The position numbers and the translations under genes were made by a program. A stretch of DNA of 64,000 nucleotides from Candidatus Aenigmatarchaeota archaeon (lineage in GTDB: Archaea; Aenigmatarchaeota; Aenigmatarchaeia; Aenigmatarchaeales; Aenigmatarchaeaceae), in assembly GCA_016933455.1 (NCBI GenBank), contig JAFGAZ010000015.1, forward strand, positions 11,583 to 75,582, written 5' to 3'. Of the stretch, positions 13,001 through 64,000 are shown in pieces. Under the pieces are notes generated by a model. The model had not been told where the DNA came from and ran no database searches. It was given only the letters and a program-made list of their open reading frames with translations. Positions within the stretch are counted from its first letter, which is position 1. Every line of letters starts with the position of its first letter.

Positions 13001-14482
13001 ATGAACAAGTTTTACGTTACAACGGCGATAGACTATGTTAACGCAGCCCCGCATATAGGTCATGCTTATCAGAAAATAGTTGCCGATGTTCTTGCCAGAT
13101 GGAACAAAGTCTTGGGCAAAAAGGTTTTCTTTCTTACAGGAACCGATGAGCACGGCAAGAAGATAGCAGAATCTGCCCAGAAAAACAATAAGACACCCAA
13201 GGAGTTTGTTGACGAGATATCGCAGAAATTCGTTACTTCTTGGCAAGCGCTTAATTTGGATTTTGACAGATTCATCAGGACAACAGACGAAGACCACAAG
13301 AAAACCGTTTTGGAATTCGTGAAAAAGATAGAGGAAAGCGGCGACATATACAAGGGCAAATATTCCGGCTGGTATTGCGTTGGTTGCGAAAGATACTATA
13401 CGGAAACAGAAATGCCAGATAAAGTATGTCCGTTTCACAAAAAACCTCTTGAAGAGGTTAGCGAGGATGCTTATTTTTTCAGGTTAAGCAAATACCAGGA
13501 TTTTCTTTTGGGGCTTTACGAAAAAAACCCGGAATTCATACTGCCTGTTGAGAGAAAGAATGAGATGGTGAACAGAGTAAAAGAGGGTCTTCAGGACCTT
13601 TGCATAACAAGGGCTTCTCTTGATTGGGGCATACCGTTTCCTCTTGACAAGAGCCATGTCATTTATGTTTGGTTTGATGCTTTGATTAACTATTACACTG
13701 CTATAAACAGTGATGACAAAAAGATTTTCTGGCCGGCCGATGTTCATCTGCTGGGAAAGGACAATGGCTGGTTCCACGCCATAATATGGCCTGCCATGCT
13801 AAAGTCCGTAGGAATCGAAATGCCAAAGAATGTTTTCATACACGGCTTTTTGACATTCAATGGCAACAAGATATCAAAGTCGCTTGGTAATGTGATATCG
13901 CCCTTGGTTTTGGCTGACAAATACGGTGCTGATCCCATAAGGTACTATTGCCTAAGGCAGATACCCTTTGGTGAGGACGGCGACTTTTCAGAGGAAGCTT
14001 TGGTCAACAGGCACAACTCGGAACTTGCTGACACTCTGGGCAATCTTGTTAATCGCGTTATTGTTTTAACAGAAAAGAATTTTGATGGTCTTGTTCCACA
14101 AAAAGGCGAAGATGACAATTTGTCAAAGCTGGCATTGGAAACTGTCGAAAAGACAAGAAAAGCGTTGGACAACTTCCAGTTCAATGTCGCTCTAAACGAC
14201 ATATTCTATTTCCTTGGCGAGGCAAACAAGTACATCAATGACAATGAGATATGGGCCATAAAAGACAAGGAGAAACTTGGCAATATGATGTATAATTTAC
14301 TTGAAGCAATCAGATTTTCATCGATACTTCTATACCCCTTCATACCCGAAACTTCTGAGAAGATAACAGAGCAATTGGGTCTTGAAAAGAAATTTTGTTT
14401 TGATGATTTGAAATGGGGCTTGCTAAAAACGGGAACAAAAACAAAACGCGGAAAAGTTTTGTTCCAGAAGATAAAGTGTTAG
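13001..14482 (+). CDS. metG: methionyl-tRNA synthetase (core only, no C-terminal tRNA-binding domain)
   Basis: Class I signatures HIGHAY and KISKSLGN are present, with a zinc knuckle CVGCE...CPFH. Length is 493 aa. Confidence 0.9.
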   Translation: MNKFYVTTAIDYVNAAPHIGHAYQKIVADVLARWNKVLGKKVFFLTGTDEHGKKIAESAQKNNKTPKEFVDEISQKFVTSWQALNLDFDRFIRTTDEDHKKTVLEFVKKIEESGDIYKGKYSGWYCVGCERYYTETEMPDKVCPFHKKPLEEVSEDAYFFRLSKYQDFLLGLYEKNPEFILPVERKNEMVNRVKEGLQDLCITRASLDWGIPFPLDKSHVIYVWFDALINYYTAINSDDKKIFWPADVHLLGKDNGWFHAIIWPAMLKSVGIEMPKNVFIHGFLTFNGNKISKSLGNVISPLVLADKYGADPIRYYCLRQIPFGEDGDFSEEALVNRHNSELADTLGNLVNRVIVLTEKNFDGLVPQKGEDDNLSKLALETVEKTRKALDNFQFNVALNDIFYFLGEANKYINDNEIWAIKDKEKLGNMMYNLLEAIRFSSILLYPFIPETSEKITEQLGLEKKFCFDDLKWGLLKTGTKTKRGKVLFQKIKC

Positions 14483-14568
14483 AATTGTTTTTAACCAGTT
14501 TAGATCAATATTTAATTCCAATTAGTTGCCTTTAATAGGATATTTTTCTATTTATGAATAATTATTCG

Positions 14569-14576
14569 TTTAAATT
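14569..14576 (+). promoter_or_regulatory. TATA-box candidate (TTTAAATT, within cgTTTAAATtg) 29 nt upstream of the ATG; implies a leaderless mRNA
   Basis: There is no SD upstream of ATG 14598. The same CGTTTAAAT core occurs at 21410 and 62802. Confidence 0.4.
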
Positions 14577-14597
14577 GTTTTCTGTTCATTAAATGTT

Positions 14598-17500
14598 ATG
14601 AGAAAAAGTTTGTTTTTTTTGATTTTTGTCTTGCTATTGTCTTCTATAGCCATCATAACTCTTGCAGATGATGTCATTTCTGAAAATACAACACAAGCAG
14701 AAGATATCGTGATGTCGGAAAGCATAGAAAGCACCGGCACTTTGTTCGAGACGGAAACGCCCTTTCTAATTTTAGAGAGCAGTGAGCCCTTACACATATC
14801 TATGGACGTAGTCACCTCTTCTCCGGAAATAGGCATGATCGATATCAACATAGAGGACTTTGAAGGCTTTGCAACTATTGTATTGGAGGGGTTGGAAGTT
14901 GGACATGATTATTATGTTTATACCAACAGCTATGAAAACAAACAGATTTTAAAAGCGGTTGCAAAAGAATGCGAAGATAAATGCGAAACAGAAGTCAAGG
15001 GCACAATATCTTTCAATGTTTCAGGTTCGCCAACGCACATTTGGTTACAGAACAAACCGTCCACAAAGATAATAAGGGACAATACAAATGGTGGGGACTG
15101 TTACCTTGTGGGTACATGGGACTATGCAACAAAGACATGCGTACTTAATCAGGACCTTACTGAAAGCGTCCAGATAGAAAGCAACAACATAGTTTTCGAC
15201 TGCAACGGTCACAGCATAACCGGCTCAAGAACTGGTAACGGGATATACATGTATTACGCAGATTATGCTACCGTGAGAAACTGCAAGATAAGCAACTTCA
15301 CATATGGCATCCGTACTTACAACGCGGATTATGGCAATATAGAAAACAATGTGATTTTCGAGAATTTGGACCGTGGTATTTACATATACTATGGTAACGG
15401 CAATTTCATGGTTAACAACGATATCATTCTAAACAACAACTATGGTATCTACATATATAGGTACTATAACAACAGGGTATACCACAACAACTTTATTGAA
15501 AACCGCATTCAACTTTACAATTACGGTGGTTATAGCAATTATTTTGATAACGGCTATCCATCAGGAGGCAACTACTTTTCTGATTATAGCGGAATAGATA
15601 GTGACGGGGATCACATAGGCGACAGCTACTATGTCTTCAATGTGGGTCAGGATCACTATCCTTTCGTGGATGACTACGGTTGGCTTGGCGCTGACTTTGA
15701 CGGCGACGGCATATGCAGAATAGGATGGACCAACGAAAGTTGCATAGGTTCTGATAACTGTGTGTATATCTTCAATCCAGACCAGACCAATTCAGATGGC
15801 GATTCCTTTGGTGACGTTTGTGACATATGCCCTTTTGCGACAAATGAAGACCAGCTAGATAGCGATGAAGACGGTTTTGGCGACGTGTGCGACAACTGTC
15901 CTGATATTTCTAATAATGATCAGATTGATGTTGATAGTGATGGCTTAGGGGACGCCTGCGACAACTGCATTAATGATTTCAATCCAATCCAGACCGACAG
16001 CGATAACGATGGTCTGGGCGACGCATGCGAAAAAATGCTAGGTTTCCTGATTAATCCATTAATGCCTTTGACAGTTAGTCAGAACGAGCCTTTTACATTC
16101 ACTACAAGAGTTGAATGTAACAATGGTCCATGTAGCAATGTGGTTGCAATTCTAGACCCTATAAATAAACCTTTATCATGCAAGTACATTTATTATGGAG
16201 GTGTTAGGGAGAGTGGTGTTTATACTATATATCCATCAGGTCCAGAGTCTGCTGGTTACGACGTCTTCTGTGATATGGAAACTGATGGTGGAGGCTGGAC
16301 ACTTGTAGCCTCTACATACCTTAATACTTTGAACGATCAGGGAGGGTCGTATTATGTTGATCTAGAAACCCTTTACCCAACTTCTTCACATGAAAGTGTT
16401 TGGGATGGTATGAGACCATTATCATTGGGAATGGAAGATGACATAAGGTTTTCGTGCAAGGTTGACAGAACTGATATTGATTTTGCTGTTGATTTGGCTT
16501 TCTACGACATTAACTGGTATTACGAGATAACAAACTCTTCAACTGACGAGGGTGTTTATTTCGAAGATAATAACGGTGTTGGACAGACCCTGCCCGCGCC
16601 TGCCAGAAAGAACATACTAACTGGAGACACCAGAGTTTTAGGTGACCAGTGGAATTATGGTTATTTGGAAGGAGAAGACTATAATGGTGACACTTATGAT
16701 TTTACTGTTGATTTTGATGATAGAGGAATGGACTCTAATCAGCAGGACGGAACAGACTGGGGAGAAGATGATGGTGAGAAAAAATGCGGTTCGGTTTATC
16801 CTTCATATGGAACATGGTTCATATGGTTCAGAGAGGGAATGGATTATTCTAAAATAAAGGGTGTCGTGCCTATGGACGAAAGTGCAAAACCCTTTTACAC
16901 AACAACTCAGAACCCTATGTCTGGTTCTGATATATCCTGTCTGCAAGACATGGACACTGGAGATATTTGCGAGCAAACATGGAACGTCATGCCCACAGGA
17001 CAGCAAGGATCATCATACAGCTTCTTTACGATTTACAGCTTCATGGATGATGAAGCACTTACTGACACAGTCAATATAACGATTTACTGTGAAGATAGTG
17101 ATGGAGATGGTGTATGTGTTGATGTTGACAACTGCCCCTTTGTTATTAATCCGGATCAGCTAGATGATGATAGTGATGGTTTAGGGGATGTGTGCGACAA
17201 CTGTCCTGATATTTCTAATAATGATCAGATTGATGTTGATAGTGATGGCTTAGGGGACGCCTGCGACAACTGCGTTTATGTTTATAATCCTGATCAGGCT
17301 AATTCTGACAACAGTGCATTAGATTTCACTTTTATTATAGTGGGGGACGAGAATGGCCATCGCTATCTTATCAAATCCAATAACGACGGAACATTCGAAG
17401 CCTCTGTTGATTTGGGCGTTTTTGGCGGCAATTTGAGGGGAGGTGCCGTAGCAGACTATGACAACGACGGCGACTATGACTTTGTGACATGCAACGATAA

Positions 17501-20500
17501 CGATAATTGGTGCTATTTCGTTGCCCAGGAAAGCAAAGGAGTGTTTTCTTCAGGAACAAGAATCGGCAGCATTATTACGTCTTTGAGTGGTTATGAGATG
17601 GACATGGCAGCAGCCGATTTCAATAACGATGGCAACTATGACTTTATAGTTGGTGGTAATAATGATGATATTTATCTTTTTCTTGGTGATGGTATGGGTG
17701 GATTTACAACTTCCACAATAACAACTGATGCTCCAAACAATTATGGTAGAGGAAAGGATGCTGGCGATATAAACGAAGATGGTAACATGGATTTTGTTTA
17801 CGGCGACAACGGCAGCGGTCTTGTCTATGCTTACTATGGCGACGGAACAGGAAGTTTTTCCTCGCCCGTGTCTTTGTTTGACACTCTCGGAAACAGCAAC
17901 GATCCTTACGGTGTCACTCTTGCTGATTTCAATAATGATGGTAATCTAGATATAATTGCAATAGGTGGAAGTAGTGGTAATTTTGATTTGTGGACTGGCA
18001 ATGGTGCTGGAAGTTTCACATATCAATGGCAAGTTTTTGACACCAATAATCATGGTTCTATAGATAACTATGATTTTGACAACGACGGCGACCAGGACGT
18101 TGTTATAACAACGTACAGTAATAGACAAATAATGTATTACAGCAATGATGGTGATGGTCATTTCACGTATTTATCCACTATTGCTTCAACAATCGGTTAT
18201 TCATTCGGAATTTCAGCACCACCTGTTGCCAAACTCGGAGACGAATTTGGAGATGCTTGTGATAATTGCCCATACACAGATAACCCTGAACAAACTGATA
18301 CCGACAATGACGGCGTTGGTGATGCGTGCGACAACTGCGTTTATGTGGTAAATCCAGATCAGATAGACAGCGATTCTAAAACCATATCTGATATTGTGGT
18401 TTTTGAGGAAGATTTTAATGATAATATGCTTAACACAACCAAGTGGACAACAGATATTGTTGGGGACAGTACATATCAGGAGACTAATCAAGAAGGCAAG
18501 TTCAATATTCTTGGTCAGGGAAGCAGTTCCACATATCATATTTACTTGGTTTCTGAGAATATTCACGTTGAGGACTGGGAAACTCTTACAGTAGAAGGCA
18601 AATGGATGTTCAGCAGCTCGGCTACAACACCTGAGATGCTATTCCAGCTAATAGATTCCGATACTAGCAGTGTAAATGGTGTGGGCTATGCTACATGGGG
18701 TTCTAGGATTAGATACTTCCTTTCAACAACTACCGAAGACTCTAGAACCATACCAAGAACATACGCTGCATTCAAAATGATAATAACAAAGACAAGCATG
18801 GAATACTGGGAGAATGGTGTAAAGATAAAAGAGCTACCAACAACATCACTTGCGTTAGGAGAAAATTTCAAGCTAAGGATAGGTGGCTGGGATTATTCTA
18901 GAATTGCTGGCCAGTATGCATATTTTGACGACATAAAAATATCCATCAACGGAGAATCAAACGATGGCTTAGGGGATGCGTGCGACAACTGTCCATATGT
19001 TCCCAATCCGAGCCAAGAGAACAATGACGGTGACAAAGCTGGAACGGCATGTGATTGCGATGATAACGATCCTTTGAATTATCCTGGCGGTGTTGAGGCC
19101 TGCGATAATAGAGACAATAACTGTAATTACATTGTTGATGAAGACTTGGTAGAGTCTTGTGGAGAGGGTGCATGCATAGGAACATCGACATGCTCTGCCG
19201 GTATTTGGGGAGACTGTTCAACCTACGGCAATGACGCGGGCACATGCGCCATATGCGATATTTCAGGCATACCTTCCTTTGATGAGACTCAGGATAGTGA
19301 CTGTCCTAACACACAGTGCCAGGATTCTTGTTTACTGACTCCTGATGGAAATCCCTTTACTTGGGACTATGCTGAAGACGTTCCAAACGAGTGTTCTGCA
19401 TTGTTTACATGCACATCTAACGATTGCATTTACGAACACGAATGCAATGTTGAAACATGTTCGGCTGAATGTGATGCGACTCATGATTGTGAGGATAGCA
19501 CGTGTTCCCAAATATATGACGACGAATGCATTGGTTTGAAGCTAAAGGATTGGAATTCCAATATGGATTATGACAGTCTTTTGGTTGAAGAATCTTGTAG
19601 TAATTCTTGCCTTGATACATGCCTCTGCACTGATTGTGAGGTTGATTGTACAGCACAAGAACCAGAACCATATTGTGTGAAAAATGTCTGTAATGCTGAA
19701 TGTGACATGGACGAACATTGTTTAGCTACAGAGTGCGACCAGAACGACGGTTGTTATGACAACATCTATAGGGACTATGAAGACGTAGACAATAACTGTC
19801 TTGGAGATTGTTCCTGCGAGAATAATGAATGTACGATATACAGTGAAGAAGCGGACAATGATGGAGACGGTTATTCGGTAAACTGTGGGGATTGTGACGA
19901 TTATGATATCACTTCATATCCCGGTGCCCCAGAACTTTGCGATAGAAAGGATAATAATTGTGATGGTATTATTCCCGAAGACGAGATAGATGACGATAGT
20001 GACGGCATGACAGAATGCGAAGGAGACTGTAATGACAACGATGCGACAATGTATGTTGGTGCCGAAGAACTATGTGATCTCAAAGACAATAATTGTGACG
20101 GTCAGGTCGACGAAACCATTGCAGGTCAGGAGACAGATGCTGACAGTGACACAGTAAATGATTGTTATGATGACAAATGTTTTGGAACAGGTCTCTGGTA
20201 TGCAGAAAAGACTTTGCAACCAAATCATTTCGATTCATCGAATACCAATCTTGAAGAAACATATGGTTGCAGCTGCGAGCAGATACTTTACTGCAAACCT
20301 GGAACTGATACAGGAGAGTACAAATTCGGATGTTCTGTAGGCACTATGAACGTCTGGATATACCAAAAGGCCGAAAGCTGGGCTCCCGATTGCCAGATAG
20401 ACGGCAAAGTCGTCATGGAAGGTGAGGGCAAGCCTTTGTTTGAAAATACTGATGATGATTGGATGCTAGATATTATAGACTTCGATAACGACAATGATGG

Positions 20501-20594
20501 TGTGGATGATTCTTTGGACGACATGCCGGAAGATTCTGACCCTGAAGGATCAGAAGGTCATGGCACACCAGATTGGTATAAGAAAAAGAAATAG
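14598..20594 (+). CDS. giant secreted mosaic adhesin-like protein (1998 aa)
   Basis: All sub-coordinates below are approximate.
- Signal peptide: [23 protein letters not shown].
- NosD-like parallel beta-helix, ~15068-15675, ending in the [20 protein letters not shown] motif.
- Three thrombospondin type-3 Ca-binding repeat blocks, ~15691-16033, 17088-17312 and 18232-18375.
- Fibrinogen-like signature.
- FG-GAP/VCBS propeller.
- Jelly-roll/ConA-like region, ~18395-18948.
- MopE-like C-D-D-x-D...PGAxExCDxxDNNCDG repeats, ~19050-19140 and 19886-20113.
- Cys-rich blocks.
- No C-terminal TM segment. Confidence 0.85.
15885..15968 (+). repeat. 84-nt perfect direct repeat, copy 1 (TSP3 cassette [28 protein letters not shown])
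   Basis: Identical nucleotide for nucleotide to 17190-17273 by manual comparison. Confidence 0.9.
16170..16840 (+). other. fibrinogen-related-domain-like segment inside the 1998-aa ORF (approximate bounds)
   Basis: [21 protein letters not shown]...[19 protein letters not shown] (motif at 16269-16307) matches the hallmark C-D-M-[DE]-T-D-G-G-G-W-T of fibrinogen C-terminal domains. The canonical C-terminal WW..C..SNLNG signature was not seen. Confidence 0.5.
17190..17273 (+). repeat. 84-nt perfect direct repeat, copy 2
   Basis: Identical to 15885-15968. The flanks are similar at the protein level only. Confidence 0.9.
17320..18225 (+). other. FG-GAP/VCBS repeat beta-propeller region inside the 1998-aa ORF (approximate bounds)
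   Basis: At least five Ca-binding blades are visible: [51 protein letters not shown] and [13 protein letters not shown]. Each is preceded by a G-x-G-x-G-x-F element. Confidence 0.75.
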
Positions 20595-33654: not shown

Positions 33655-36600
33655 ATGAAGTTATTCGGTAATAGGTTAAAAGGTAGTTCTGGTGTCGCTA
33701 TCGGCGCCATGGTCGTACTCACACTCGCTTTCATAGTTGCTAGCGTGAGCTATATGATGCCTGTTTTGGCTGCTCATGACGCTTTAGTTACCATCACACC
33801 AAATAAAGCAAGCTGTAGTGATTTGCCCAGTACATTCAATGTTAATGTAGAAAATGTCGGTAATGGTGGTTATGGAATTTATAATGTAAAAATATACAAG
33901 GCAATGACTAACATCGTTTCGTTAACATGTGGCCCTGCTCCTTCTGGATGGACATTGGTTGGAGGCGGTCTCCAATTTGGTTCATATTGTGAATATACAA
34001 CTGACCCATACATTGGTGGCGTGATTGATTATGGGGAGGAATTAGACTTTACTTTTGATGCGGTTATAGACCAAGACAATTGTCAAAGCACTTTTAGGGT
34101 AACAACCTTGGATAATCAAGCAATTGTTACTGGTAGCGGTCAGGGAGAAGAAGAGAATCATGACAAGGTGTTAAATGTAGATTGTACACCGCCTGTAATA
34201 GAAAAACAGATAACTTCTGGTACATTTGATGAAAGAGATGGTGTTTGCCCTCCCGGACTACAGGAAGAGGGAGATGTTTGCTGGATGACGCAAGGAACAA
34301 TACATGTCACTGCAACCGATTCTAGCTGCAACGACGAATGTAACTTGGGTCTTGCTTATTGTGAATGGGACTATACTGTTGACGGTGTCCCAGAAGACAG
34401 CGGTAACGAAACCGCAAATACATGCGTTGAAGGATGGGACATTGTCTTTGATGAGGATTCTGAACATATTTTGACAATAACTTGTTATGACGTTGTTGGA
34501 AACAGTGTTGAAGATGTTGAAACATTCAAAGTGGATGACACTCCGCCTACAACAACAAAAGACATAGAGCCGGATGAATATGTTAGAGACGGTGCAGAAT
34601 ATATCGATACTGTGAATGAAATAACATTTACAAATCCTGACGGCGGAGATATATGCGCAATCGGTACGGACAAGACATGGTACAAGAATGTAGTTTATAC
34701 AGAAGAAGTTTTGAGGACAATAAATAATGACGGTCCTCACGGTTATGACTATTGTTATCAGCCAGATATGTATTGTAATGGAGCATATTTGGGAACTACA
34801 ACACCATATGAGAGTGGTGTAGAATGCATAAACGAAGCGCAGGAACATTGCAACGATAACGTTGTGGAAGGTTGCGACGGTTTGGACTGTCAAAGATGGG
34901 AAGCCGATGGATATGACAATTGGGAGAGGTGTGTTGAATCTTATGTATATGGAAATTGTAATGTAGATTCATCATGGAAACTATACGACGGAACCCCAAT
35001 AACAAAAGACCAGGAATCATGCCACGTACTTTATTACTTTAGTATCGATGAGCTAGGAAATGTTGAAGACATGCAGTACAACTGCTTCTTTGTTGACAAG
35101 ACACCGCCAGAATTATCAAAAGAAGTGGGCGATCCAAAACTACAATTTTGTGACATGACAGAAGAGCCTGAAGTATTAACAGAGGCCGATTTGTCCAATG
35201 ATGTGTTTGGAGTTACAGTAACAAAGTCATCCGACGGTACTAAAGTAAAGTGGGTTGTTGATTTTGACGAAACAGATATGGAAGGTCATACGGCTACAGG
35301 AGCTCAGGTTATGATAGCCAGTGAATCAGTTCCTCTATTCAATATAGGTATGATGCAAGATGGGGGCAATTGGTTTGCAGGATACAAGCCTTATGATGGA
35401 AGTTGGGGTGCTGCTACGAATGTTCTTCCAGATGGAATGACTGTAACAGGAAGTCCTAATTCGGAGTACTATGAGATAGAGATTCCTATTGAATCTCTAC
35501 CATGCCCTTATTATTGGGCAATAAATGTAGAAGCAACATGTCCAGGATGTGACGGATTCCCCGGTTCATCTTCGGCACAACAAAACTATCCAGAAGACTG
35601 GTCAAGATGGACAGCTGTAAACACAGCTTTGGGTCCACAAACAAACAATTTCTGGGTAACAGATGAGACGGACATAACATTTACTTGTAGAGATCCAGAA
35701 CCACACCCGTCCGGAGACGAGGAAGTATGCTTTAAGGTTTCGTACGACATGGAACAAGACGGATACAATACAGATGTTTATTGTGCCAAGTATAGTGGAA
35801 CGATGGAAGGAGACTGGTGTTGCATTGATTCTACACCACAAACACCTTTTGTTTTCAATTTCAATGCAGAGGAATATTCTTTGCATGACTTGGAATACTA
35901 TTGTAGAGATGCTGTTGGAAAAGAAAGCGAGCCGAAAATACAATACTACAAGGTCTATGCAGTGCCCGAGGTTTCAAAGGAAATGGCCGACGATGCTGTG
36001 TATATAGGAGACTGCCTGCCTGGCACAGAGCCAAGCGACGACGAATGTTATGTCAAATCCGGAAATGTCGTAGAAATAACATTCAGCGAGCCTCAAGCAA
36101 ACGGATGCTTGTTGCCAATCGAATGTACTTATGAGGTGAAATATCAAAACGAGATTGTAGACTTTGGCGATTTCAATGACGATATCACAATACCAATGTC
36201 AGGTGACTGTGAGCACATTCTTACAATAGAATGTGTAGATGCTATTGGTAATACAGCTTTCCATGATGTGGAAACATTCGAAGTGGATGAGACCCCGCCA
36301 GAGACAACAAAAACATACGGAGATCCGACTGTTGTTGACGGTGATTATAGATGGATTACTTCAGCTACGCCAATAACACTGACTTCAGAAGATGAAAAGG
36401 TTGGTGTCGATGGTATCTATTACACATACGAATGGGTTTCTGATGAAATGTGCGAAGCACATCCAGAGAATTCAAAGACAGACGAATACCAGTATCTACC
36501 ATCGTCTGGAAATTACGTGTTCCCTTCGACCAATGAAGATAACAAGAACGGGGAAAACGTCTACAGACCAGGAGTTATAGGACCTCATGTGAACTTGGTC

Positions 36601-44800: not shown

Positions 44801-45014
44801 AATTACAAAGAACGATACAAGATGTGTTATGCCAGATGGTCCTGTTTGTGACAATTGTGGCAACTCTGTTCCTGAAATAGAGATACCGACATTTAACATA
44901 CAAATGCCAAAGTTCACTGTACCTACATTTAGCTTTACAAAACCTTCTTTCGACTTTTCTAAGACTGTTTTCAAGATACCTAGCATAACATTCTCATCTT
45001 TCCTTAGAAGATAG
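41856..45014 (+). CDS. giant secreted Cys-rich protein (1052 aa) with PKD-like N-domain, disintegrin-like domain and repeated Cys-rich modules
   Basis: Has a signal peptide, a PKD-like INWGDGT motif and ICDNDIDDDCDGLVDCDDPDC. The disintegrin-like region begins VCGNGIVETGEDCDPGEDVSGDCCDATC and is followed by six disintegrin-loop-like repeats. Later Cys-rich blocks include FCNG/WCNG-type repeats. The C-terminus is a P-x-F periodic tail with no TM segment. Confidence 0.85.
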   Translation: MKASSIAFVLSVFFVSTIIISTIVFAGQAVYSIDVEQPVPGSNVINPVDITGIWHVSAPQGNIEQYNVQINWGDGTVVDIVNINRTEAGETQQTQEFFGNFSTLVLTDCDSDDGEDNCNVGLLSHTYGGEYLCQQTDVTVKLYHSTPPGTESSGDAQVNFILIPGIDEICDNDIDDDCDGLVDCDDPDCDGDPACPVQVCGNGIVETGEDCDPGEDVSGDCCDATCHYETSSYTCRDSVGVCDMPEQCTGSSALCPEDSFMSSSTVCRSGSGDLCDPDETCTGTDASCPADQISPAGMVCNYGSGDMCDPDETCTGVAGEACPVDSIMPYMTVCRSGSGDLCDPDEMCTGIEDMPCPEDNVASSDTECRQAAGICDVAETCTGVVGQTCPTDSFLSSSTVCRVSAGDCDLTEMCTGSSADCPDDAFVPQGTLCLDGSYCNGEEKCDGFGVCQSGSAVSCISNDISEIATCFNTPDGNDYTWDSRNPFTSICVDDDENTGHCTTGDDTVTSACDYEQCNAECDETHACDDSSCEETYDDYCDGFVLTEYDSDKIKDSTTVSDSCPNTCLGDCTCTDCDTDCSAPATSTYCVKDVCDAECDSDDDCDVTDCDYLDGCYGKDYYDYSDAENTCLGDCSCTVNSCTSPSISQNDARCTECQTDSDCDSKDRDYCVGTAVKHDEGRCVDYECSVETTTVQECDDTLWCNGDETCSNAACVSGTAPNVDDGVDCTIDSCDEANDVIINTPDDSYCDNGLWCDGQETCDISLGCQAGTAIDCSDDLFCTVDEYCDDDSDSCAFSPRDCSGNNIEGIATCNNDPDNNPFTWDYRSAFESSCDDENDVCTVGDSEISYTCHDCDLTDGIGTSLEERCCAECDQDSDCVQSTGYCDYENMTYCSRDSYGTCGDDCGCIDDAWSCDASEYCLYCDHCGDGEVNCGEDCEVGDQGDRCLPEGASIFTCINGDSYETPEFDVCTQTCEWDGCTQIITKNDTRCVMPDGPVCDNCGNSVPEIEIPTFNIQMPKFTVPTFSFTKPSFDFSKTVFKIPSITFSSFLRR
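42453..43154 (+). repeat. disintegrin-like domain plus six tandem ~33-aa repeats C-[RN]-x(3,4)-G-x-C-D-x-x-E-x-C-T-G-x(4,5)-C-P-x-D
   Basis: The repeats begin at Cys235, 267, 300, 334, 368 and 401 of the ORF. Examples are CRDSVGVCDMPEQCTGSSALCPED and CRSGSGDLCDPDETCTGTDASCPAD. Confidence 0.8.
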
Positions 45015-62811: not shown

Positions 62812-63197
62812 CTTTTTGAAATTAATAACTTCTTACGTGATAACATGTCAACTTCAATGTAATCATTGGAATCATTGCTGATTAGGCGACTAGATGAGGC
62901 TTCTTCTGACATTAACGTTATCCGTTTCAACCATACCATCAGGCTTGGTTGCTGTCGAGTGAATTATAACAGCTAAGTTTGAGCCCGAAAAGGGCTATGA
63001 AAAACCCCGTGGTATATGACGGCAGAAAAACGATAAGATGCTCATTGCGAATTGTTTCGCGGTGTAAGGGTTGAGGACTATGAATGTTTTCGAACACCTG
63101 TTGATGCCTACTTCGGGCAGATGAGAACAAGACGGTAAAACGAGTCCATAAGATCAATCATGATCAATGATACCGGCAGAGGTAGAAGGTAGGGTCT

Positions 63198-64000
63198 GAG
63201 CATATTCAAACCACCAGGTGGATAGCTCAGCTCTCGAGAGCGACGAAGATCCTAGCAAGCTGGGATAAGCTCGGGGTAGGCGCAAGCGGCCTTTGAACCC
63301 GAGATAGTCGAATGCGACATCGCACTGACTTTGGTCAGTAGTCCGAAAGGGCGGCGAACCCGCTGAATTGAAGCATCTAAGTAAGCGGAGGAAGAGAAAG
63401 CAATTGCGATTCCGTTATTAACGGCGAGCGAAAACGGAACAGAGCGAACCGAATTGCTGCAGAAATGCAGTTAAGATGTGGTACCCGGCAAAGCTTAGTT
63501 AGTCGACTTAAAGTCGCCTGGAAAGGCGCGCCATAGACTGTGATAGCCAGGTAGAGGAAGACTAAAAAGCTGATTCGGGAATTGACTACCATTCCTTGGA
63601 TATGGAGTGGGAAGGTGGCTGGCATCAACAGCCAACTCTAAACATCTCGAGAGTCTGATAGTGAAAAAGTAAGGTAACTGAAAGCTGAAAAGTATTCTTA
63701 ACAGAAGGTGAAAAGACCTTGAAACCTGTTGGTGATAGTTATCCATGGCCTGAAAGGTGTCCTTGCGAAGGAAAGACGAGTGATCGTCACATACGAGCAG
63801 GGGCTTACAGGGTCATGGAGTCCGTTTAGAAACACGGAGCGGGGAGTTTGTTTCTGTGGCGAGCATAAGTGCTTACGGCACGTATGCAAAGCGAAAGCGA
63901 AAAGTGCGTAGCGCAAGCATGGCACGGGGTCTGAAAGGGCCTAAAGTCACAGGGACAAGACCAGAAAGCACTTGATCTAACCCCAATCAGGATGAAGCGT
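63198..64000 (+). rRNA. rrl: 23S (LSU) rRNA, 5' ~800 nt, continues beyond the window; the 5' end is approximate
   Basis: Three stretches match conserved domain-I sequence: GGTGGATAGCTCAGCTC...CGACGAAG...GATAAGCTCGGGGTAGG, then GAATTGAAGCATCTAAGTAAGCGGAGGAAGAGAAA...TTAACGGCGAGCGAAAACGG, then CCTGGAAAGGCGCGCCATAGACTGTGATAGCC. All ORF-track ORFs here are spurious. Confidence 0.9.

What the first reader, a model, noticed from the sequence alone, without database searches (positions are those of the whole stretch)
14598..20594. 1998-aa mosaic protein combining metazoan-ECM-like modules (TSP3, fibrinogen-like, integrin-type FG-GAP propeller) with beta-helix and MopE-like Cys repeats
The sequence shows the following modules, in order:
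- a signal peptide
- a NosD-type parallel beta-helix
- TSP3 Ca-binding repeats, in three separate blocks
- a [13 protein letters not shown] fibrinogen-like signature
- at least five FG-GAP blades
- a jelly-roll region
- three CDDxD...PGAxExCDxxDNNCDG (MopE-like) units
- Cys-rich blocks
- an acidic tail with no membrane anchor

Each module is individually known from prokaryotic surface proteins. Combining them all in one archaeal polypeptide is unusual. It suggests a multivalent, Ca-dependent adhesin.
Basis: partly seen in the sequence, partly recalled or inferred. Interest (0 to 1): 0.7.

Follow-up and report, generated by a model that had tools for sequence, protein, structure and literature searches.

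The report
Modular calcium-binding surface adhesin, DPANN archaeon
A single intact gene in a tiny symbiotic-type archaeon (Aenigmarchaeota) encodes a 1998-residue secreted protein in which sugar- or ligand-binding modules are threaded into a calcium-binding "wire"; it probably lets the cell stick to a partner or surface, and it ends in a so far undescribed domain shared by many surface proteins of related archaea.

Summary
Window 14598-20594 (+) is one uninterrupted 1998-aa ORF with one hydrophobic stretch, the N-terminal signal peptide.

HMMs confirm a NosD-type beta-helix, TSP3 repeats (four blocks, not three), a fibrinogen-like GGGWT domain, an FG-GAP propeller with five Ca loops, and three MopE motifs. 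The fibrinogen-related fold is confirmed by an AF2 model and Foldseek. The "jelly-roll" call stays weak.

The contig is archaeal. NCBI already holds the protein as [quoted passage not shown].

Every module junction recurs in independent homologues, so this is not a fusion artefact.

New points:
- Close relatives carry the same modules in permuted or reduced order.
- Each globular module sits at a fixed phase inside a TSP3 repeat. The fibrinogen-like domain is further nested in a conserved two-part frame.
- An exact 84-nt in-frame direct repeat brackets that cassette.
- The "acidic tail" is a conserved roughly 160-aa C-terminal domain with no Pfam, NCBIfam or PDB match. It lies at the extreme C-terminus of varied secreted proteins in 17 of 19 archaeal loci, nearly all labelled as DPANN lineages.

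Best reading: a Ca-stiffened multivalent lectin-type adhesin, possibly held on the cell by that C-terminal domain. Function is inferred, not shown. Interest is moderate.

The parts
14483..14597 (+). AT-rich intergenic region upstream of the ORF; probably holds its own promoter (inferred only)
   Evidence: There are 115 nt between the MetRS stop and the ATG, with a TTTAAAT-like element about 25 nt upstream of the ATG. No functional test was done.
14598..14669 (+). Sec-type signal peptide (aa 1-24)
   Evidence: This is the only hydrophobic stretch in the protein, with Kyte-Doolittle maxima at aa 2-9. The sequence reads MRK + hydrophobic core + TLA|DD.
14670..15071 (+). N-terminal domain (aa 25-158), family-specific, no database model
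   Evidence: No Pfam or NCBIfam hit. It is 38-49% identical to the equivalent region of P0003, P0004 and P0074, and always precedes the beta-helix.
15072..15689 (+). Right-handed parallel beta-helix (aa 159-364), NosD/CASH type
   Evidence: Pfam Beta_helix 1.7e-15 and NosD 1e-14. TIGR03804 repeat scores 30 bits against a cutoff of 19.45. The NosD subfamily model TIGR04247 is far below its cutoff (48.6 against 300).
15690..16028 (+). TSP3 block a (aa 365-477): a cap plus four 23-aa Ca-binding repeats
   Evidence: TSP_3 42 bits against a cutoff of 25. Motif DxDxDGxGDxCDNC. 69-nt periodicity.
16029..16166 (+). N-half of the conserved two-part 'frame' (aa 478-523)
   Evidence: 46-55% identical to the N-halves in P0002, P0004 and L023. 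In every case an insert of 138-282 aa and a C-half follow. The fold was not resolved; pLDDT is below 50.
16167..16847 (+). Fibrinogen-related (GGGWT-type) domain (aa 524-750), the 'guest' nested in the frame
   Evidence: NF040941 45.9 bits, above the cutoff of 30. PF00147 36.9 bits, above the cutoff of 22, but covering only the N-terminal quarter of the profile. PDB sequence hits to MFAP4 and FIBCD1 down to 6e-10. AF2 plus Foldseek: the top 50 matches are all FReDs. It is 70% identical to P0002 aa 883-1116.
16848..17090 (+). C-half of the frame (aa 751-831), ending ...NITIYC
   Evidence: 50-62% identical to the C-halves in P0002, P0004 and L023. Junctions are conserved.
17091..17309 (+). TSP3 block b (aa 832-904)
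   Evidence: TSP_3 40 bits against a cutoff of 25.
15885..15968 (+). Exact 84-nt direct repeat, copy 1 (aa 430-457, in TSP3 block a)
   Evidence: Identical to 17190-17273, with 1305 nt spacing, in frame. It lies within a 191-nt repeat of 80% identity, which is the longest repeat in the 64-kb window. Other TSP3 unit pairs are 51-75% identical at the nucleotide level.
17190..17273 (+). Exact 84-nt direct repeat, copy 2 (aa 865-892, in TSP3 block b)
17310..18227 (+). FG-GAP/VCBS beta-propeller (aa 905-1210) with five DxDxDG Ca loops
   Evidence: FG-GAP_3 1.2e-34 with 5 stretches; FG-GAP 1.9e-6. Loops at aa 953, 1007, 1057, 1110 and 1159. It is 69% identical to P0002 aa 416-712. It sits inside a TSP3 repeat: NPDQANSD|...|[11 protein letters not shown].
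18228..18377 (+). TSP3 block c (aa 1211-1260)
   Evidence: Motifs at aa 1213-1259. It is a member of the repeat family D1.
18378..18962 (+). Conserved roughly 195-aa module (aa 1261-1455), possibly a lectin- or CBM-like beta-sandwich; fold unproven
   Evidence: CBM_4_9 23.1 bits, below the cutoff of 25.9. The 9-sequence profile gives only E >= 0.35 in PDB. It is 56-68% identical to P0002 and P0003, and ten more metagenomic loci encode it. It sits inside a TSP3 repeat.
18963..19049 (+). TSP3 block d (aa 1456-1484), about 1.5 repeats
   Evidence: [30 protein letters not shown].
19050..19145 (+). MopE-type Cys motif 1 (aa 1485-1516)
   Evidence: PF11617 1e-7.
19146..19847 (+). Cys-rich region (aa 1517-1750, 34 Cys), no database model
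   Evidence: No Pfam or NCBIfam hit. It is shared with P0002, P0003, P0270, P0325 and P0342. aa 1577-1746 are 48% identical to window 43260-43781.
19848..20111 (+). MopE-type motifs 2 and 3 (aa 1751-1838)
   Evidence: PF11617 3.5e-22, 2 stretches.
20112..20594 (+). Conserved C-terminal domain (aa 1839-1998) plus the stop codon. It runs DxDxDGVxD..DKC ... PNHYD ... [25 protein letters not shown] ... WAPDCQ ... ENTD.D...D.D.DNDNDG ... G.PDW[WYHF] followed by a basic end.
   Evidence: No Pfam, NCBIfam or PDB match. It is 50-67% identical to the C-termini of P0270, P0325, P0330 and P0388-390. The genome scan found 19 archaeal loci; in 17 the match ends 0-5 aa before the stop codon. AF2 failed, with pLDDT 37.

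Best explanation
The gene encodes a Sec-exported, very acidic protein (19% D+E, 92 Cys). It most likely works as a calcium-stiffened, multivalent lectin-type adhesin of an Aenigmarchaeota (DPANN) cell.

**Backbone.** About ten thrombospondin-type-3 repeats plus Cys-rich and MopE modules form a Ca- and disulfide-stabilised 'wire'.

**Inserted modules.** Globular binding modules sit in that wire at fixed phases:
- The FG-GAP propeller and the roughly 195-aa lectin/CBM-like module sit between the DxD and GxGDxCDNC halves of a repeat.
- A two-part frame carrying a fibrinogen-related (ficolin/intelectin-like) domain sits between the two Cys of a CDNC motif.
- An N-terminal beta-helix adds a further carbohydrate-binding, or possibly carbohydrate-cleaving, surface.

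**Retention and binding.** The mature protein has no membrane anchor. I infer that the conserved C-terminal domain holds it on the producer's own envelope. The distal modules would then bind glycans or proteins on a partner cell or on particles in a Ca-dependent way.

**Evolution.** Relatives show the same cassettes permuted, lost or swapped, and an exact 84-nt in-frame repeat flanks one cassette. The family therefore appears to evolve by recombination within the TSP3-coding repeats.

**Shown:** ORF integrity, export signal, domain identities, junction phases, cassette permutation, and the distribution and terminal position of the C-terminal domain.

**Inferred:** Ca dependence, ligands, surface retention, and a role in host or partner attachment.
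For: **Export and lack of an anchor**
- A signal peptide is present and there is no other hydrophobic segment.

**Binding-type domains**
- Beta_helix/NosD, TSP_3, FG-GAP_3, MopE, GGGWT_bact and Fibrinogen_C are all detected.
- The FReD fold is supported by AF2 plus Foldseek. All top 50 matches are ficolin, tenascin, MFAP4, intelectin or FIBCD1 type lectin or recognition domains.

**Ca-binding motifs read directly from the sequence**
- DxDxDGxxDxCDNC repeats, five DxDxDG propeller loops, and DNDNDG in the C-terminal domain.

**Organism**
- The contig is archaeal: LSU rRNA and the neighbours Rad50/Mre11, MetRS, SepF and exosome RNase PH.
- NCBI names the source Aenigmarchaeota.
- GC and GC3 of all modules match the neighbouring genes.

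**Cassette architecture**
- P0002 has the propeller before the FReD, at 69-70% identity.
- P0003 equals this protein minus aa 470-1214.
- P0004 and L023 carry the same frame with other guests.
- Junction phases are conserved in 6 of 6 and 7 of 8 cases.
- The exact 84-nt repeat is documented.

**C-terminal domain**
- It was found in 19 archaeal loci, nearly all DPANN. It is terminal in 17.
- Its carriers have signal peptides and unrelated passenger domains: Beta_helix, SdrD_B, CarboxypepD_reg, Glug, Big_13, Glucodextran_B, MopE and TSP_3.

**Literature**
- Pectin-lyase-like and lectin-like extracellular proteins have been proposed as symbiosis factors in the cultivated DPANN archaeon Nanobdella (10.1101/2023.10.27.564410).
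Against: - There is no functional, expression or localisation data.
- The host and lifestyle of this MAG are unknown.
- The FReD match is only partial. The Pfam profile is covered over 4-47 of 221 positions and Foldseek TM is about 0.44. The acidic putative ligand/Ca region is modelled at low confidence.
- The lectin/CBM call for aa 1261-1455 is below threshold.
- The frame halves and the C-terminal domain could not be modelled.
- No conserved neighbouring gene, such as a partner or sorting enzyme, supports an anchoring system.
- Synteny is not conserved among homologues.
- The beta-helix could be catalytic, which would shift the role towards glycan degradation.
- The signal peptide might stay uncleaved and anchor the N-terminus, which would reverse the proposed polarity.
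Confidence: 0.55

Rival explanations
1. It is a secreted carbohydrate-active enzyme. The beta-helix (pectate-lyase/CASH type) is the catalytic domain. The FReD, propeller and aa 1261-1455 modules are substrate-targeting carbohydrate-binding modules. The protein would be used to degrade exopolymers or a host's cell-wall or S-layer glycans for nutrients or entry.
For: - Beta_helix/NosD domain.
- Weak CBM_4_9 similarity.
- Other carriers of the C-terminal domain have large beta-helix arrays and Glucodextran_B.
- Pectin-lyase-like folds have been noted in Nanobdella surface proteins.
Against: - No match to any specific lyase or hydrolase family. No catalytic residues could be assigned.
- The beta-helix is about 10% of the protein, and P0002 lacks it while keeping the other modules.
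- The CBM call is below threshold.
Confidence: 0.15
2. It is a structural envelope or matrix protein: an S-layer-associated or biofilm scaffold. In this reading Ca-bridged acidic repeats cross-link cells or minerals rather than recognising a specific partner.
For: - Extreme acidity, many predicted Ca sites and 92 Cys.
- Several other large Cys-rich secreted proteins lie in the same window.
- TSP3-rich MtsC-type proteins mediate cell-cell cohesion in Myxococcus. The match to NCBIfam NF047638 is partial.
Against: - Lectin/recognition-type modules (FReD, propeller) and rapid cassette shuffling between relatives fit variable ligand recognition better than a conserved structural role.
- There is no lattice-forming or Ig-repeat S-layer signature.
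Confidence: 0.15
3. The polarity is reversed. The signal peptide is uncleaved and anchors the N-terminus. The conserved C-terminal domain is then the distal tip that engages the partner, for example its membrane or envelope.
For: - The N-terminal hydrophobic segment is the only one in the protein.
- The C-terminal domain has Ca-type loops and a basic W-rich end that could contact lipids.
Against: - The c-region TLA|DD looks like a signal-peptidase site.
- The C-terminal domain is conserved across Aenigmatarchaeota, Woesearchaeota, Nanoarchaeota and Micrarchaeota. That these lineages have different partners is my own expectation, not something tested here. If it holds, it fits binding to a self component better than binding to a host ligand.
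Confidence: 0.1
4. The ORF is an assembly or frameshift artefact that fuses unrelated genes, possibly joined through the 84-nt repeat.
For: An exact 84-nt repeat inside a short-read MAG contig is a potential mis-join point.
Against: - The reading frame is a single 5994-nt stretch.
- GC and GC3 are uniform across modules.
- Every module junction is reproduced in homologues from other samples: P0002, P0003, P0004, L023, P0270 and P0325.
- The 191-nt flanks of the repeat are diverged (80% identity), as expected for two real copies.
- The only consistent graph path is U-R-X-R-D.
Confidence: 0.03

Closest known systems
Bacterial 'fibrinogen-like YCDxxxxGGGW domain-containing proteins' (NCBIfam NF040941), mostly Myxococcota, often with MopE motifs
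   Same: aa 524-750 is 42-54% identical over the whole roughly 225-aa module to the 32 short homologues aligned. It shares the motifs [13 protein letters not shown], VDLSFYD..WY and [24 protein letters not shown]...KCG. MopE co-occurs in the same protein.
   Different: Here the module is nested in a two-part frame that is itself inside a TSP3 array, in an archaeon. The window copy has lost both members of a conserved Cys pair (C to Y and C to N).
Animal fibrinogen-related recognition domains (ficolins, FIBCD1, MFAP4, tenascin, intelectin, tachylectin-5A)
   Same: The fold is shared: all top 50 Foldseek matches are of this kind, with prob 1.0. The A-subdomain sequence signature is shared (PDB phmmer 6e-10 to MFAP4). 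These are Ca-dependent glycan or acetyl-group binders (established knowledge).
   Different: Identity is only 12-22% and TM about 0.44. The Pfam profile is matched only at positions 4-47 of 221. The ligand/Ca subdomain is not demonstrably conserved.
Thrombospondin/COMP signature region (type-3 repeat Ca 'wire' next to a lectin-like C-terminal beta-sandwich)
   Same: The 23-residue repeats have the canonical DxDxDGxxDxCDNCPxxxNxxQxD pattern and pass the Pfam TSP_3 cutoff. Globular beta-rich modules adjoin the wire.
   Different: There are no EGF repeats, no TSP_C match and no coiled-coil oligomerisation domain. The globular domains are inserted within repeats rather than following them. The organism is a prokaryote.
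Myxococcus cell-cell cohesion / outer-membrane-exchange TSP3 proteins (MtsC NF047638; TraA/TraB)
   Same: These are TSP3-rich surface proteins involved in cell-cell contact. There is a partial HMM match of 142 bits over four stretches.
   Different: The score is far below the equivalog cutoff of 350. There is no MYXO-CTERM sorting signal. The non-TSP3 domains differ.
Giant Ca-dependent RTX adhesins (MpIBP, LapA, SiiE, FrhA)
   Same: The working logic is the same: a long Ca-rigidified extender carries several ligand-binding modules and one end is retained on the cell (e.g. PMC5550230; listed, title and abstract only, paper not read).
   Different: There are no BIg extender repeats and no RTX GGxGxD nonapeptides or T1SS signal. 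The protein has a Sec signal peptide. The organism is an archaeon with a single membrane.
DPANN extracellular proteins proposed for host interaction (Nanobdella pectin-lyase-like and lectin-like proteins; nanohaloarchaeal giant surface proteins)
   Same: The setting is the same: a small-genome archaeon whose secreted proteins combine beta-helix and lectin-type folds (PMC10266531, listed, title and abstract only, paper not read).
   Different: No sequence relationship was tested. Those proteins are not reported to contain TSP3, FReD or FG-GAP modules or this C-terminal domain. No paper in the library links DPANN with these domains.

Membership tests
Thrombospondin type 3 repeat (Pfam PF02412) | Score at or above the gathering cutoff; a 23-residue Asp-rich Ca-binding repeat with a CxxC pattern | tested here: met
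   Scanned as separate blocks, the score is 42.0 and 40.0 bits against a cutoff of 25. The whole-protein score of 18 bits is below the cutoff. The 69-nt periodicity and the motif were read directly.
Fibrinogen-like YCDxxxxGGGW domain (NCBIfam NF040941) | Score at or above the cutoff of 30 bits; the YCDM..GGGW signature | tested here: met
   45.9 bits at aa 527-570. The full roughly 225-aa module aligns with 32 family members, with 31 invariant columns.
Fibrinogen_C / FReD (Pfam PF00147) | Full-length match to the 221-position profile (A, B and P subdomains) | tested here: not met
   The score of 36.9 bits exceeds the cutoff of 22, but only profile positions 4-47 are matched.
Fibrinogen_C / FReD (Pfam PF00147) | FReD three-dimensional fold | tested here: met
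   The AF2 model has pLDDT above 80 over most of the domain. The top 50 Foldseek PDB hits are all FReDs, with E down to 2.4e-7 and prob 1.0. TM is only about 0.44 and rmsd 8-10 A.
FG-GAP/VCBS repeat propeller (PF13517, PF01839) | Repeats above the cutoff, with DxDxDG Ca loops | tested here: met
   119.2 bits against a cutoff of 26.9, 5 stretches. Five DxDxDG loops are spaced 49-54 aa apart.
Integrin-alpha-type seven-bladed propeller | Seven FG-GAP blades | tested here: inconclusive
   There are five clear Ca-loop units plus partial N- and C-terminal units in 306 aa. This suggests about six blades. No structure model was made.
NosD (TIGR04247 nitrous-oxide reductase maturation) | Score at or above the subfamily cutoff of 300 bits; a nos gene context | tested here: not met
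   48.6 bits. The neighbours are MetRS and SepF, not nos genes. Only the generic parallel beta-helix (PF13229, PF05048, TIGR03804) is supported.
MopE-type motif (PF11617) | Motif score at or above 27 bits | tested here: met
   75.9 bits, three stretches. The match to the MopE structure 2vov is weak, at E = 0.016. Copper binding was not tested.
CBM_4_9 / jelly-roll carbohydrate-binding module | Score at or above 25.9 bits, or a significant structural or profile match | tested here: not met
   23.1 bits. The 3- and 9-sequence profiles give no PDB hit with E below 0.35.
MtsC cell-cell cohesion protein (NF047638) | Equivalog cutoff of 350 bits; a MYXO-CTERM signal | tested here: not met
   142 bits, from the TSP3 repeats only. 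There is no C-terminal hydrophobic segment.
Known archaeal/bacterial C-terminal sorting signals (PGF-CTERM, PEF-CTERM, LPXTG) and RTX/T1SS adhesins | A C-terminal motif plus TM helix and basic tail; or GGxGxD nonapeptides | tested here: not met
   There is no PGF, PEF, LPXTG or GGxGxD motif. There is no hydrophobic segment other than aa 5-23.
Proposed new DPANN C-terminal domain (this report) | A conserved roughly 150-190-aa module at the extreme C-terminus of signal-peptide proteins with varied passengers | tested here: met
   In 17 of 19 loci the match ends 0-5 aa before the stop codon. The alignment has about 40 positions conserved at 80% or more. The passenger domains are diverse. Its function was not tested.

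The most novel reading that the evidence does not exclude
The last roughly 160 residues would be the founding example of an undescribed, DPANN-wide C-terminal surface-retention (or sorting) domain. It would tag a whole class of secreted 'cargo' proteins for attachment to the cell envelope, without a transmembrane helix or a sortase-type signal. In the same reading, the body of the protein is a display platform: binding domains are nested inside thrombospondin-type repeats, and the FReD inside a further frame, and they are exchanged, permuted or deleted by recombination between the repeat-coding DNA. The exact 84-nt in-frame repeat would be a live substrate for this. The result would be rapid adhesin variation in host-dependent archaea.
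Probability: 0.35. Interest if true: 0.7.

Novelty: new variant of a known kind. Interest (0 to 1): 0.45.

Why it matters
DPANN archaea depend on contact with other cells, yet the molecules that make that contact are almost unknown.

This protein and its relatives give a concrete, testable set of candidate recognition modules: the fibrinogen-related domain, the FG-GAP propeller, the beta-helix and the aa 1261-1455 module.

The conserved C-terminal domain gives a sequence handle for listing candidate surface proteins across Aenigmatarchaeota, Woesearchaeota, Nanoarchaeota and Micrarchaeota. It also allows a direct test of how proteins are retained on these cells.

The fixed-phase nesting of domains inside TSP3 repeats, and the permutation of cassettes between relatives, is a clear case of repeat-mediated domain shuffling.

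If none of this holds, the gene is simply one more large modular secreted protein, which NCBI already lists under a generic name.

Tried and rejected
**Structure and fold searches**
- AF2 of the C-terminal domain with an 8-sequence alignment gave pLDDT 37, so no fold search was attempted.
- AF2 of aa 478-832 resolved only the FReD. The frame halves stayed below pLDDT 50 because the alignment had no depth there.
- Concatenated frame halves from five instances gave no Pfam hit at E <= 1.
- Profiles of the aa 1261-1455 module (3 and 9 sequences) found nothing significant in PDB.
- The C-terminal-domain profile found nothing in PDB. NCBIfam found nothing for the C-terminal domain, the Cys-rich region, the N-domain or aa 1261-1455.

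**Homologue searches**
- The word-indexed homologue search with the C-terminal domain found only 3 fragments.
- The exhaustive representative search with aa 1517-1998 was swamped by MopE repeats (14,959 hits). It still yielded P0270, P0325, P0330 and P0342.

**Context**
- Conserved gene neighbourhood around genes carrying the C-terminal domain: none.
- Synteny among P0001-P0004: none.
- An exact look-up of the window protein's own contig found no record.

**Hypotheses rejected**
- A diversity-generating retroelement: there is no template/variable repeat pair in the window. The only long repeats are the intragenic TSP3 repeat and the disintegrin repeats.
- An RTX-, LPXTG- or PGF-CTERM-type adhesin.
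- NosD function.
- Recent import of a single cassette: all shared modules are similarly diverged from P0002 (about 50-70% identity), and GC3 is uniform.

**Literature**
- Searches found no paper on this family.

Full report
**1. The observation**

Window 14598-20594 (+) is a single ATG-initiated ORF of 1998 codons with no internal stop. A 115-nt AT-rich spacer follows the MetRS gene upstream, and a convergent SepF gene lies downstream. The protein is very acidic: D 13.4%, D+E 19%, K+R 4%. It has 92 Cys. Its only hydrophobic stretch is aa 5-23, a signal-peptide-like MRK + core + TLA|DD.

On the whole protein, Pfam gives:
- FG-GAP_3, 5e-27
- MopE motif, 2.7e-21 (three stretches)
- NosD, 2e-14, and Beta_helix, 4e-13
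- TSP_3, only 0.0022

Scanned block by block, TSP_3 passes its cutoff (42 and 40 bits against 25). Fibrinogen_C appears at 36.9 bits against a cutoff of 22, but only over profile positions 4-47 of 221. NCBIfam adds the curated 'fibrinogen-like YCDxxxxGGGW' domain above its cutoff (45.9 against 30). It also shows that the NosD and MtsC equivalog models are far below theirs.

- There are four TSP3 blocks: aa 365-477, 832-904, 1211-1260 and 1456-1484.
- The 'jelly-roll' (aa 1261-1455) rests only on a sub-threshold CBM_4_9 hit and non-significant PDB profile hits.
- The 'acidic tail' is part of a conserved domain (section 5).

**2. Whose gene it is**

The window ends in an archaeal LSU rRNA. It encodes Rad50/Mre11, MetRS, SepF and exosome RNase PH subunits. 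The identical protein is in NCBI as 'MAG: VCBS repeat-containing protein [Candidatus Aenigmarchaeota archaeon]' on a 76-kb contig. GC (0.42) and GC3 (0.39) of the gene, and of each module, resemble those of the neighbouring genes. The gene looks native to a DPANN-type archaeon.

**3. The fibrinogen-like module**

aa 524-750 aligns over its whole length with 32 short homologues at 42-54% identity. Those that carry names are bacterial 'fibrinogen-like YCDxxxxGGGW' proteins, mostly Myxococcota MAGs, and many also carry MopE motifs. The alignment has 31 invariant columns, including CDM.TDGGGW, VD..F and a C-terminal acidic block DF.VDF.DRG...DGT.WG.

Against PDB sequences only the first roughly 50 residues match animal FReDs (MFAP4 6e-10, FIBCD1, tenascin, ficolins, intelectin).

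An AF2 model of aa 478-832 has pLDDT above 80 over most of the module. Its 50 best Foldseek PDB matches are all fibrinogen-related domains (E down to 2.4e-7, prob 1.0). TM is only about 0.44 and identity 12-22%.

It is thus a genuine but divergent FReD of the bacterial type. Its nearest relatives are prokaryotic, not metazoan.

**4. Architecture: nested cassettes on a TSP3 wire, shuffled between relatives**

The closest homologues carry the same modules in other arrangements.
- P0002 (1968 aa, a different sample) has the propeller (69% identity) before the FReD (70%). It lacks the N-domain and beta-helix, and has an extra frame with an unknown guest.
- P0003 (Woesearchaeota MAG) corresponds to aa 1-469 joined to aa 1215-1742. 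It therefore lacks both the FReD and propeller cassettes.
- P0004 and L023 carry the same two-part frame two and three times, with unrelated guests.

The frame is an N-half of about 45 aa and a C-half of about 80 aa ending ...ITIYC. It brackets an insert of 138-282 aa in all eight instances, seen in four proteins.

Junction phases are conserved.
- The propeller and the aa 1261-1455 module lie between ...NPDQxDxD and GxGDxCDNC of one TSP3 repeat, in 6 of 6 cases.
- The frame lies between the two Cys of a CDNC motif, as GDAC-[E...ITIY]-C, in 7 of 8 cases.

I infer that the TSP3 repeats form a continuous Ca- and disulfide-stabilised backbone from which the globular domains protrude as loop insertions. 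The FReD is nested one level deeper. The frame halves could not be modelled and match no Pfam family even when concatenated. 'One beta-sandwich split by a guest' therefore remains an inference.

At the DNA level, an exact 84-nt direct repeat occurs at 15885-15968 and again at 17190-17273, 1305 nt apart and in frame. It lies inside a 191-nt repeat of 80% identity, which is the longest repeat in the whole window. Other TSP3 unit pairs are 51-75% identical at the nucleotide level. The relatives show no such perfect copy. This indicates recent gene conversion or duplication. It also provides a substrate for in-frame loss of the frame/FReD cassette.

**5. The C-terminal domain**

aa 1839-1998 is 50-67% identical to the C-termini of P0270, P0325, P0330 (a Nanoarchaeia MAG) and three short fragments.

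A scan of one genome per species found 19 loci, all archaeal. Their labels are Aenigmatarchaeota, Woesearchaeota, Nanoarchaeota/Nanoarchaeia, Micrarchaeota and 'Nanohaloarchaea', plus one 'Euryarchaeota', two loci labelled only as archaeon or uncultured archaeon (one of them partial) and one partial 'Methanosarcinales'.

In 17 of the 19, the match ends 0-5 residues before the stop codon. The complete carriers are 233-2385 aa, and most start with a signal peptide. Their passenger domains are otherwise unrelated: Beta_helix arrays, SdrD_B/CarboxypepD_reg, Glug, Big_13, Glucodextran_B, MopE and TSP_3.

The 15-sequence alignment defines the domain as DxDxDGVxD..DKC ... PNHYD ... [32 protein letters not shown] ... 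EGE.K.LFENTD.D...D.LD.DNDNDG ... G.PDWW followed by a short basic end. That end has the variants HPKSKHK, C.KHP.KC and KKK.

No Pfam, NCBIfam or PDB entry matches it, and AF2 failed. No conserved neighbouring gene accompanies it.

A conserved module fixed at the C-terminus of diverse Sec substrates that lack any membrane anchor is what one expects of a retention or sorting domain. That role is an inference.

**6. Mechanism proposed**

The protein is exported by Sec, and the signal peptide is probably cleaved after Ala24.

About ten TSP3 repeats, five propeller loops and the C-terminal domain's loops bind Ca2+. This follows from established knowledge of thrombospondin type-3 repeats and integrin FG-GAP loops and was not tested here. 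Together with many disulfides, this would make a stiff, extended, strongly anionic stalk.

The FReD, the propeller, the beta-helix and the aa 1261-1455 module offer several independent binding surfaces. By analogy with ficolins, intelectins, integrins and CASH domains, their ligands are most likely glycans.

The C-terminal domain would keep the protein on the producer's envelope. For a DPANN cell the likely target is a partner cell's surface.

My confidence in this overall reading is 0.55. The rivals are:
- a glycan-degrading enzyme with targeting modules, 0.15
- a structural or matrix protein, 0.15
- reversed polarity, with the C-terminal domain as the distal tip, 0.10
- an assembly artefact, 0.03

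The artefact reading is countered because every junction is seen in independent homologues and composition is uniform.

**7. Comparison with known systems, and novelty**

The protein works like the giant Ca-dependent bacterial adhesins and like thrombospondin's Ca 'wire plus lectin' region. It is a member of none of these families as a whole:
- It has no RTX, LPXTG, PGF-CTERM or MYXO-CTERM signal.
- The MtsC and NosD equivalog cutoffs are not met.
- There is no TSP_C match.

Individual modules are bona fide members of TSP_3, FG-GAP_3, Beta_helix, the MopE motif and GGGWT_bact.

Large modular surface proteins, including pectin-lyase-like and lectin-like ones, have already been proposed as DPANN symbiosis factors (10.1101/2023.10.27.564410; PMC10266531, listed, title and abstract only, paper not read). 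I found no paper on this family or on the C-terminal domain.

I rate it a new variant of a known kind, with moderate interest (0.45). The mosaic itself is not surprising for DPANN. The C-terminal domain and the fixed-phase, recombining cassette architecture are the parts worth following up.

Noticed in passing
window 41856-45014 (+): A 1052-aa secreted, Cys-rich protein has three Disintegrin (PF00200) repeats (1.8e-12; DNA repeats at 42618-42910). It also has a module at 43260-43781 that is 48% identical to aa 1577-1746 of the mosaic protein. A disintegrin domain in an archaeon is itself unusual.
   Followed up: partly
window 33655-38328 (+): A 1557-aa protein with an N-terminal hydrophobic segment and many Cys has no Pfam match at all. 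It is a third large putative surface protein within 30 kb.
   Followed up: no
window 14598-20594 and 33655-38328: N-x-S/T glycosylation sequons are strongly depleted in the two largest secreted proteins: 8 observed against 23.2 +/- 4.2 in shuffles, and 1 against 10.4 +/- 3.0. Rad50 is also low (0 against 3.6), so the cause is unclear. It could be avoidance of N-glycosylation or a composition effect.
   Followed up: partly
window 16167-16847 (aa 654-655 and about 694-696): The window's FReD has lost both members of a Cys pair that is conserved in the bacterial family and in P0002 (SCF.E becomes VYFED; GED.C.D becomes GEDYNGD). This suggests the correlated loss of one disulfide.
   Followed up: no
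window 63194-64000 (+) and the whole window: The 5' part of an archaeal 23S rRNA gene lies at the window end. No 16S rRNA gene lies upstream of it within the window and there is no tRNA gene in 64 kb, so the rRNA genes appear unlinked here.
   Followed up: no
L023:123-968 (metagenome contig Ga0315295_10000003): In a 3307-aa relative with three frame cassettes, one guest insert weakly resembles the ALK/LTK glycine-rich domain (PF12810, 21.4 bits against a cutoff of 24.5). This is another 'animal-type' module, but the match is below threshold.
   Followed up: no
L009 and L011 (Nanoarchaeota SAG AM-311-I10, contig JBHPFA010000005.1): Two genes carrying the C-terminal domain (1009 and 2385 aa) lie within about 9 kb on one contig. 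Two Woesearchaeota MAGs also have two copies each, so the domain is used by several proteins per genome.
   Followed up: partly
L013:9156-10640 versus window 13001-14482: A MetRS gene lies close to the gene carrying the C-terminal domain both in a Woesearchaeota MAG and in the window. It is the only shared neighbour found, and may be a coincidence.
   Followed up: no
P0002 (L001:2911-8817) and L021: Some relatives end after the first, Cys-containing half of the C-terminal domain and lack the acidic/PDWW half. This suggests the domain has two separable subdomains.
   Followed up: no
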